DNA from: Eledone cirrhosa
Taxonomy: Eukaryota
Reading direction: 5' to 3'
Assembly (NCBI GenBank): GCA_964016885.1
Contig: OZ024749.1
Location: 48,360,001 to 48,424,000, forward strand
Length of the DNA stretch: 64,000 nucleotides
The translations under genes were made by a program, and so were the position numbers. Every line of letters starts with the position of its first letter. Position 1 is the stretch's first letter. The notes beneath the pieces were generated by a model. That model did not search any database and was not told the origin of the DNA. It saw nothing but the letters and a program-made list of their open reading frames with translations. Below are positions 3,498-3,684 of the stretch, one piece after another.

Positions 3498-3684
3498 AAC
3501 CAGTAAAACCCCGACGGCTGAGCTCAAGCCGTTTCGACGGCTAATTCTGTCCAGAATTAGCCGTCGAAACGGCTTGAGCTCAGCCGTCGGGGTCTTACTG
3601 GTTCCTATTACCCACTCTACTACCCCAAGTATTGAGTACTTTGGTGCGTTATGGTCCACCTGGTTCCTTACCACATTTCCTTTG

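What the first reader, a model, noticed from the sequence alone, without database searches (positions are those of the whole stretch)
3541..3592. Family 1 folds back or truncates at the hammerhead's own stem II loop
Seen: the copy retains the 3' half of a hammerhead (GAAAC-GGCT-TGAGCTC-AGCC-GTC|GGGG, palindromic GAGCTC loop, GUC triplet) but lacks CUGANGA. The symmetry axis is the hairpin immediately 5' of GAAA, the position of stem II. All four copies break or invert at the same TCCAGAA(A/T)TAG site (3550, 21531, 45111, 48855). Inference: the ribozyme's long stem II stalls reverse transcription or lets the cDNA self-prime or anneal. The RNA structure would then dictate the inverted DNA architecture and delete the catalytic 5' strand.
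Basis: partly seen in the sequence, partly recalled or inferred. Interest (0 to 1): 0.75.

Follow-up and report, generated by a model that had tools for sequence, protein, structure and literature searches.

The report
Penelope hairpins stop inside ribozyme arm
This small DNA hairpin is a short two-armed copy of a Penelope-type jumping gene, and most sampled copies in this genome stop within 11 bases inside the gene's predicted self-cutting RNA, likely because the copied RNA begins there rather than because the RNA's fold stalls the copying enzyme.

Summary
The hairpin is real. It is a short head-to-head insertion of a Hydra-clade Penelope-like retroelement in (TA)n; the tail 22-mer has 42,257 exact hits. 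Longer copies carry the missing 5' half of a type I hammerhead, with a U3-A8 core instead of CUGANGA and a long two-part stem II. Breakpoints are strongly clustered. Of 118 sampled copies that reach stem II, 95 end in 11 bases (-45..-35 from the GUC cut site) and 15 run far past it. Junctions differ copy to copy. Stalling or self-priming on stem II fits poorly. The stronger helices are crossed freely, the loop is not reached, either arm can be the longer, and 20 of 21 ORF-bearing copies cross the identical upstream stem II. The modal end is an initiator-like A, preceded genome-wide by G six times more often than by A, which resembles a copied cap. Best reading (about 0.6): both cDNAs run off a template RNA that starts inside stem II. 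No RNA data were available. Inverted pLTRs, tails and PLE hammerheads are published; the scan reached the same reading earlier on other DNA (e1-9525717).

The parts
3430..3495 (.). (TA)n target, left flank
   Evidence: 30 of 30 closest copies sit in (TA)n on both sides
3493..3549 (-). Inverted tail-less arm: element positions about +20 down to -37 (numbered from the GUC cut site)
   Evidence: blastn to long copy L216, 98% over 57 nt; outer end at +20/+21 in 104 of 118 inverted arms
3549..3551 (.). Junction and symmetry axis; one G shared by both arms
3549..3565 (+). 3' strand of hammerhead stem II (distal remnant -40..-35, proximal helix -34..-24); its 5' strand and loop are absent here
   Evidence: alignment to long copies; fold of L052
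3566..3588 (+). Hammerhead GAAA box, stem III with palindromic loop, GUC triplet (predicted cut after 3588)
3589..3608 (+). Stem I 3' strand and the first insertion end (about +20), an inferred RT start
3609..3691 (+). One-sided tail of about 83 nt up to the second insertion end (+103), an inferred RT start; in full-length copies it continues into the 5' UTR and ORF
3692..3730 (.). (TA)n target, right flank
21412..21607 (-). Second family copy: inverted arm to -39 with an internal duplication, tail arm from about -15
45110..45252 (+). Third copy: tail arm only, from -40, 81% identical
48807..48895 (+). Fourth copy: both outer ends, junction near -39/-41, two internal deletions

Best explanation
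The hairpin is a short two-armed insertion of a Hydra-clade Penelope-like retroelement, and its arms likely end where they do because the template RNA begins there, at a probable transcription start inside hammerhead stem II. Shown: the parent element (RT-endonuclease ORF, partial-tandem pLTR, complete hammerhead fold), two fixed outer ends (+20, +103), (TA)n targets, the pile-up of inner ends at -45..-35, varied junctions, and matching subfamily variants in the two arms. Inferred: the enzyme nicks both strands of (TA)n and primes two cDNAs at the two internal start sites on one RNA (or two sister RNAs). On a capped transcript these sites lie only about 60 and 145 nt from the 5' end, so both cDNAs run off at -41 (minor start -45), sometimes copying the cap as an extra G. 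They are then trimmed a few bases and joined by blunt, microhomology or insertion-type end joining. Long copies would come from templates with no end at that point (tandem read-through or circular RNA). Loss of the catalytic 5' strand is then a by-product of where the RNA starts.
For: Parent: the L082 ORF (710 aa, frameshifted at its start) folds with pLDDT 92.8 and its best Foldseek hits are telomerase RTs; Hydra motifs are present. Tail joins the ORF 5' region in 24 of 30 ORF-bearing loci. Wall: 95 of 118 tail arms reaching -35 end in -45..-35, mode -41 (19 copies); 78 of 118 unambiguous inverted arms end in the same window. Two template classes: 15 of 118 pass the first ribozyme against 20 of 21 that pass the upstream copy in ORF-bearing loci (Fisher p=8e-14), and long arms pair with long arms (50 of 100). 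Both arms share the subfamily block in 31 of 56 scored pairs (6 more unaligned, dropped) against 8.2 in shuffles, maximum 17 of 2000. Cap-like G: base 5' of the -41 A is G in 5,781 arms and A in 959. Only 439 of the G arms continue with the parental three bases, and long copies have G there in 1 of 54. Expected G:A from the partner arm alone is 0.9 (blunt) to 4.0 (extreme overlap) against 5.6-6.0 observed. The -41 and -45 A's follow pyrimidines, as in an initiator (sequence; consensus recalled). Precedent: internal RT starts at the tail ends with both strands extended (PMC11167929), pLTR promoter in D. virilis (PMC2377424), cap-derived G in L1/SVA (PMC4859970).
Against: No RNA evidence for a start site was obtained. 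A start in the upstream pLTR predicts that full-length copies end at -41, but only 1 of 21 does (L234, -39), so a second template class has to be assumed. The G excess has no matched control at other positions. In the sample it is modest (G 8, A 4, T 4, C 3 at -41) and G is also common at -38 and -37; microhomology could inflate it. The TATA-like word 26-30 nt upstream is not kept in all subfamilies, and I saw no DPE-like word by eye. Eight of 118 tail arms end between -73 and -46, upstream of the proposed start. 25 of 56 arm pairs differ in the subfamily block (later mutation or two templates). The sample comes from the first 65 Mb of one contig and from copies with an exact 22-mer.
Confidence: 0.6

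Rival explanations
1. One reading: the long stem II (alone, or locked by tertiary contacts or bound protein) stalls the RT or lets the cDNA fold back and self-prime, creating the hairpin and deleting the catalytic strand.
For: The ends do fall inside stem II, at the 3' strand of the distal helix. Self-priming was proposed for head-to-head PLE palindromes (PMC3846280). A second family in the window with a short 5-bp stem II has 0 of 20 resolved ends inside its ribozyme (20 of 30 loci resolved, 4 of them near-identical neighbours), so a long stem could matter. A molecule-wide folded versus unfolded state could also correlate the arms.
Against: The RT crosses stem III (-3.9 to -7.1 kcal/mol) and the proximal stem II duplex (-7.8 to -12.6) at low end rates, yet stops in the weakest helix (-0.7 to -5.0; 6 copies folded). 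The identical upstream stem II is crossed by 20 of 21. Fold-back from the tail-bearing cDNA needs the tail arm to be the longer; the inverted arm is longer in 32 of 82, the tail arm in 39, equal in 11. The apical loop is kept in only about 5 of the short tail arms.
Confidence: 0.13
2. The template has an uncapped 5' end at -45..-41 made by processing: a host or element nuclease cutting stem II, or exonuclease trimming that halts at the folded or protein-bound ribozyme half.
For: Explains the sharp upstream edge, both arms ending together and the two template classes as well as a start site does. It needs no promoter, and the TATA-like word varies. RTs can add untemplated bases at any run-off end (recalled).
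Against: The excess base is specifically G and the ends centre on pyrimidine-A steps. The distal helix varies among subfamilies while the wall does not move. The ribozyme's own cut site shows no clear peak (7 of 184 at -3..+2).
Confidence: 0.17
3. A pre-formed hairpin is itself the mobile unit (MITE- or Helentron-like DNA element, or re-retrotransposed short copies), or long palindromes were trimmed at their centre after insertion.
For: The 40 best hits to the window copy are full-length and 97-99% identical; the 30 inspected share its junction in all but a base or two. The window lies among many other palindromic repeats.
Against: 68 distinct junction types among 82, the commonest seen 3 times. 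The window's junction occurs on several subfamily backgrounds. The sequence is the pLTR of an RT-encoding element. Long palindromic pairs persist untrimmed. No reason for DNA trimming to stop at -41.
Confidence: 0.07

Closest known systems
Hydra clade of C-terminal EN+ Penelope-like elements (Craig et al. 2021, PMC8557442; introduction, section 11, passages and supplement hits read), e.g. Hydra-1_Obim
   Same: RT then endonuclease, DKT motif, CxCx5C linker, no CCHH, CxxC and CxH around the E and N residues, (TA)n targets, hammerhead near the 3' end, tandem and inverted 5'-truncated copies with a one-sided tail.
   Different: U3-A8 core and a two-part stem II of about 55 nt, whereas Hydra-1_Obim has a canonical core and 7-bp stem II. 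RWR for RWK. Tail about 83 nt rather than 30-40. 3' UTR over 1 kb. Pile-up of ends inside stem II not mentioned in the passages read.
Poseidon element of Anolis carolinensis (Frangieh et al. 2024, PMC11167929; parts 1-2 of 4 read)
   Same: Two internal RT start sites that bound the tail, just downstream of the hammerhead; both target strands cut and extended; AT-rich targets; cleavage not needed for insertion.
   Different: Different clade. There the ORF starts in stem II, here about 200 nt after the cut site. Here both outer ends share a few T/A bases with the target. No genomic 5'-end wall was reported in the parts read.
PLE minimal hammerheads (Cervera and de la Pena 2014, PMC4209133; parts 1-2 of 4 read) and natural U3-A8 cores (Perreault et al. 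2011, PMC3088659; section 8 and passages read)
   Same: Type I topology in pLTRs, short stem I, palindromic loop III, U3-A8 covariation (seen in S. mansoni Cercyon), opposite-strand pairs 100-700 bp apart.
   Different: Stable 5-7 bp stem III and very long stem II. No bulge between positions 9 and 10.1 in the register used here. A common C3-A8 mismatch subfamily (13 of 54).
Adineta vaga Penelope inverted pLTR palindromes (Arkhipova et al. 2013, PMC3846280; passages read)
   Same: Head-to-head inverted pLTRs with palindromic junctions, optional tail, promoter-like motifs in the pLTR.
   Different: They favour self-priming on an antisense template. The arm-length symmetry here favours two separately primed cDNAs.
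L1 twin priming and cap-derived G (Hancks and Kazazian 2016, PMC4859970; passages read)
   Same: Two primers give an inversion with small indels at the junction; an untemplated G marks a capped 5' end.
   Different: Here both arms copy the same RNA stretch, whereas L1 twin-primed arms copy separate stretches (recalled).

Membership tests
EN+ Penelope-like element | Telomerase-like RT | tested here: met
   Model of the L082 ORF: top Foldseek hits TERT, E 2e-8; invariant YRDDG and other RT residues in 108 homologues. Pfam and PDB sequence searches found nothing.
EN+ Penelope-like element | C-terminal GIY-YIG endonuclease | tested here: inconclusive
   Conserved Y585, Y598-G600, R609, H613, E668, N681 fit the GIY-YIG pattern, but no profile or fold hit for this domain was obtained.
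EN+ Penelope-like element | Partial-tandem pLTR, inverted 5'-truncated copy, one-sided tail | tested here: met
Hydra clade | DKT motif, CxCx5C linker, no CCHH, CxxC and CxH motifs, (TA)n target | tested here: met
   Read from the ORF and conserved columns against section 11
Hydra clade | RWK motif | tested here: inconclusive
   RWR in L082 and L216; Hydra-1_Obim has RWK
Hydra clade | Monophyly with Hydra RTs in a tree | not tested
   No tree built; likeness to the Hydra alignment in the supplement judged by eye only
Neptune/Nematis clades | CX2-5CxxC linker and CCHH in the endonuclease | tested here: not met
   Linker is CxCx5Cx5C and no cysteine pair is conserved between the GIY and YIG positions
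Type I hammerhead ribozyme (long copies) | Core with paired positions 3 and 8, GAAA box, NUH triplet | tested here: met
   U3-A8 in 41 of 54, C3-A8 mismatch in 13 of 54; position 7 free (T 22, G 28, A 3, C 1), position 8 A in 54 of 54. The filter itself required U4-G5-A6 and A9-G10.1.
Type I hammerhead ribozyme (long copies) | Three-way junction of stems I-III | tested here: inconclusive
   Minimum-energy fold is the junction for L052 (z -2.4) but an alternative fold for L216 and L219; 1 of 6. No Rfam hammerhead match. Covariation not shown.
Type I hammerhead ribozyme (long copies) | Self-cleavage after GUC | not testable with these tools
   No clear genomic peak at the cut site in short copies (7 of 184); 2 of 23 upstream pLTRs end there
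Type I hammerhead ribozyme (window copy) | 5' catalytic strand present | tested here: not met
   Absent; the RNA would fold as one long hairpin, -105.8 kcal/mol
Non-LTR retrozyme | Non-coding tandem units each with a complete hammerhead | tested here: not met
   Short copies are head-to-head with half a ribozyme; complete ribozymes flank an RT ORF (definition)

The most novel reading that the evidence does not exclude
The element starts its RNA inside hammerhead stem II on purpose. The 5' end carries only the substrate half, and the long stem II lets it reassemble with the catalytic half from the 3' end of the same transcript: a split ribozyme that cuts both ends only when the RNA is full length and yields the circle from which long and tandem copies are made. 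Capped, unprocessed RNA is instead copied from two starts near its cap into dead hairpins, so tens of thousands of genomic junctions record the start site and cap at base resolution.
Probability: 0.22. Interest if true: 0.78.

Novelty: new variant of a known kind. Interest (0 to 1): 0.52.

Why it matters
How Penelope-like elements, the closest retroelement relatives of telomerase, make their tandem and inverted insertions, and what their hammerheads do, is stated as unresolved in PMC8557442 and PMC11167929. This family gives a large, countable in vivo record: two fixed starts, two cDNAs from the same RNA stretch, and two template classes, one ending inside the ribozyme and one running through it. 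That turns three vague models (stall or self-priming, run-off at the RNA end, circular template) into tests with a defined base. It also warns annotators that such hairpins look like MITEs but are retroelement ends. The parts themselves are known, and the cause of the wall is inferred.

Tried and rejected
Rfam on the window and on a long copy: no hammerhead. The repeat finder was swamped by (TA)n. The CUGANGA prediction gave 40 hits; the 20 inspected were unrelated flanks, other elements or junction sequences. Pfam and PDB sequence searches on the ORF: nothing. Sequencing runs: no RNA holder listed, no reads laid; this is no evidence either way. Rejected: Helentron/HINE or MITE identity (parent encodes an RT); Neptune clade, my first guess (linker and CCHH do not fit); a deleted-N7 register for the core (position 7 varies, 8 does not); a splice acceptor as the wall (no upstream exon at junctions, many arms pass -40); a shared motif at the axis of family 2 (the likeness is junction sequence); a peak at the ribozyme cut site (not clear). 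Left open: a position-by-position control for the extra G, and the contexts of the G-preceded loci L361-L402, which were fetched but not examined. Paper searches listed nothing on truncation inside stem II; most listed papers were seen as listings only, subscription papers are not covered, and Lunse et al. 2017 on PLE hammerhead variants is recalled, not read. The PMC8557442 supplement was searched only for octopus terms; supplements of the bioRxiv preprint were not seen and may bear on pLTR truncation.

Full report
Observation. The window holds a 190-nt element between (TA)n runs: an inverted arm (3493-3549), a forward arm and an unpaired tail to 3691. The forward arm carries the GAAA box, stem III, GUC and a G run, but no catalytic 5' strand. 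Rfam finds no hammerhead. Three more copies lie in the window. Positions below are counted from the predicted cut after GUC.

Family size. The genome is 3.0 Gb; I did not determine the organism. Exact 22-mers give 42,257 hits for the tail and 38,537 for the stem II 3' strand, both arms counted. A 23-mer across the 5' half gives 1,708; it omits the subfamilies with U or C at position 7, so it undercounts. The 40 best matches to the window copy are full length at 97-99%, which first suggested a pre-formed mobile hairpin. Position-ordered samples show otherwise: 68 junction types among 82 two-armed copies, the commonest seen 3 times.

Parent. Longer copies continue upstream through a complete ribozyme into a 3' UTR and an ORF. 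The 710-aa frame in L082 has 402 homologues at E below 1e-20 among 7,996 candidates scored. It folds confidently and matches telomerase RTs best. It has the DKT, CxCx5C, CxxC and CxH features and lacks the CCHH motif, as described for the Hydra clade. In 24 of 30 loci holding the ORF start, pLTR tail sequence runs straight into the 5' UTR, the partial-tandem PLE layout. Long arms often form head-to-head pairs, 50 of the first 100 hits, 177-5,445 nt apart.

Ribozyme. In 54 long copies the core reads U3 (41) or C3 (13), U4-G5-A6, a free position 7 and an invariant A8 (the filter fixed 4-6 and 9-10.1). U3-A8 is a known active covariation (PMC3088659) already seen in PLE hammerheads (PMC4209133). 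Stem II has a proximal helix of 5-9 bp, an internal loop, a weak distal helix and a loop at -49..-46. The three-way junction is the minimum-energy fold in L052 but not in L216 or L219. Cleavage is untested.

Breakpoints. I anchored on the tail so that 5' ends were not pre-selected: 184 distinct copies from the first 65 Mb of contig C1. Tail-arm ends: 15 at or beyond -140, 1 in -139..-64, 7 in -63..-46, 95 in -45..-35, 16 in -34..-24 and 50 further downstream. Six of the eleven calls at -45 are palindromic over-extensions whose true ends lie at about -40 or -35, still in the window. Inverted arms (118 unambiguous of 133) show the same wall, 78 in -45..-35, and their outer ends are fixed at +20/+21 in 104. 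Junctions are microhomology (31), blunt (18) or with inserted bases (33) among 82.

Against stalling or self-priming. The RT crosses stem III and the proximal helix at about one twelfth the end rate seen in the distal strand, although those helices are the more stable. Only 15 of 118 copies pass the first ribozyme, but 20 of 21 ORF-bearing copies that reach the identical upstream ribozyme pass it. Fold-back from the tail cDNA requires the tail arm to be longer, yet the inverted arm is longer in 32 of 82, and in L081 by about a kilobase. The loop is rarely kept. The two arms share subfamily variants far more than chance, 31 of 56 against 8.2. Together this points to two separately primed cDNAs on the same RNA stretch, as the Poseidon biochemistry allows (PMC11167929), and to two kinds of template.

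What sets the wall. The modal end is the A at -41, with a smaller group at the A at -45; both follow pyrimidines like initiator starts (consensus recalled). Genome-wide the base before the -41 A is G in 5,781 arms and A in 959. Only 439 of the G arms look parental, and the partner arm alone would give a ratio of 0.9 to 4.0. Two one-armed copies show (TA)n, then G, then the -41 A, and L117 shows the extra base on both arms. An untemplated G marks capped 5' ends in L1 and SVA (PMC4859970), and D. virilis Penelope has its promoter and start in the pLTR (PMC2377424). The evidence is suggestive only: there is no matched control at other positions, the sample-level excess is small, upstream promoter words vary, and only 1 of 21 full-length copies ends at the wall. 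That last point forces a second template class, tandem read-through or the circle proposed in PMC4209133. An uncapped processed end remains a fair rival.

Control family. The 56042-56545 palindrome belongs to another hammerhead family (9,051 hits) with a canonical core and short stem II. Of 20 resolved tail-anchored loci (30 fetched), none ends inside its ribozyme, 3 end 62-84 nt upstream, 7 run further and 10 end downstream. So a wall in stem II is not a general hammerhead property.

Prior knowledge. Inverted 5'-truncated pLTRs, tails, (TA)n targets and pLTR hammerheads are published. Six paper searches listed nothing on ends piling up inside stem II, within the limits of that library. PMC13282606 (passages read) does not mention hammerheads. 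After I had stated the start-site reading, the scan's notes returned the same reading from other DNA of this genome (e1-9525717), and other notes gave the Hydra lead, which I then checked. These are unchecked AI notes, not independent support.

Verdict. A real, strongly non-random feature of a known kind of element. Interest 0.52.

Noticed in passing
window 56042-56545 plus tail to 56602: Two-armed copy of a second hammerhead family with a canonical core and 5-bp stem II; 9,051 exact hits. A few short copies end 62-85 nt upstream of the core, and two junctions (window, L338/L339) carry an extra base like the cap signature.
   Followed up: partly
window 44588-45104: Diverged inverted pair (65%) that includes a SINE-like repeat on each side and a minimal hammerhead-like motif near 44860-44886.
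   Followed up: no
window 27818-28436, 59208-60180, 62311-62533: Another head-to-head family in (TA)n with a hammerhead-like motif that seems to have A at core position 4 (near 60020-60060).
   Followed up: no
window 4716-5762 and 19657-20278: Further large palindromic or nested inverted repeats next to (TA)n; 19657-20278 is 94% symmetric over 620 nt.
   Followed up: no
window 22218-24608 (-) and 18266-18778 (-): 661-aa RT-like frame with upstream endonuclease-side fragments, and a separate retroelement C-terminal fragment; LINE-like by eye.
   Followed up: no
L126, L127, L136, L138, L141, L142, L146, L147, L150, L314: A common subfamily has C3 opposite A8 in the core, predicted to impair cleavage, yet it has spread widely (about 4 in 10 of the first 100 hits).
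   Followed up: partly
L222, L236 (also L199, L098): A few copies begin at or within one base of the predicted cut site, a possible trace of self-cleaved templates; not above background in short copies.
   Followed up: partly
L234: An ORF-bearing copy capped at its 5' end by the same short hairpin as the window copy (arms to -38 and -39), as expected for run-off of a whole transcript.
   Followed up: partly
L008, L022, L024, L029, L075-L077: Copies insert into the (TA)n flanks of earlier copies and build clusters.
   Followed up: no
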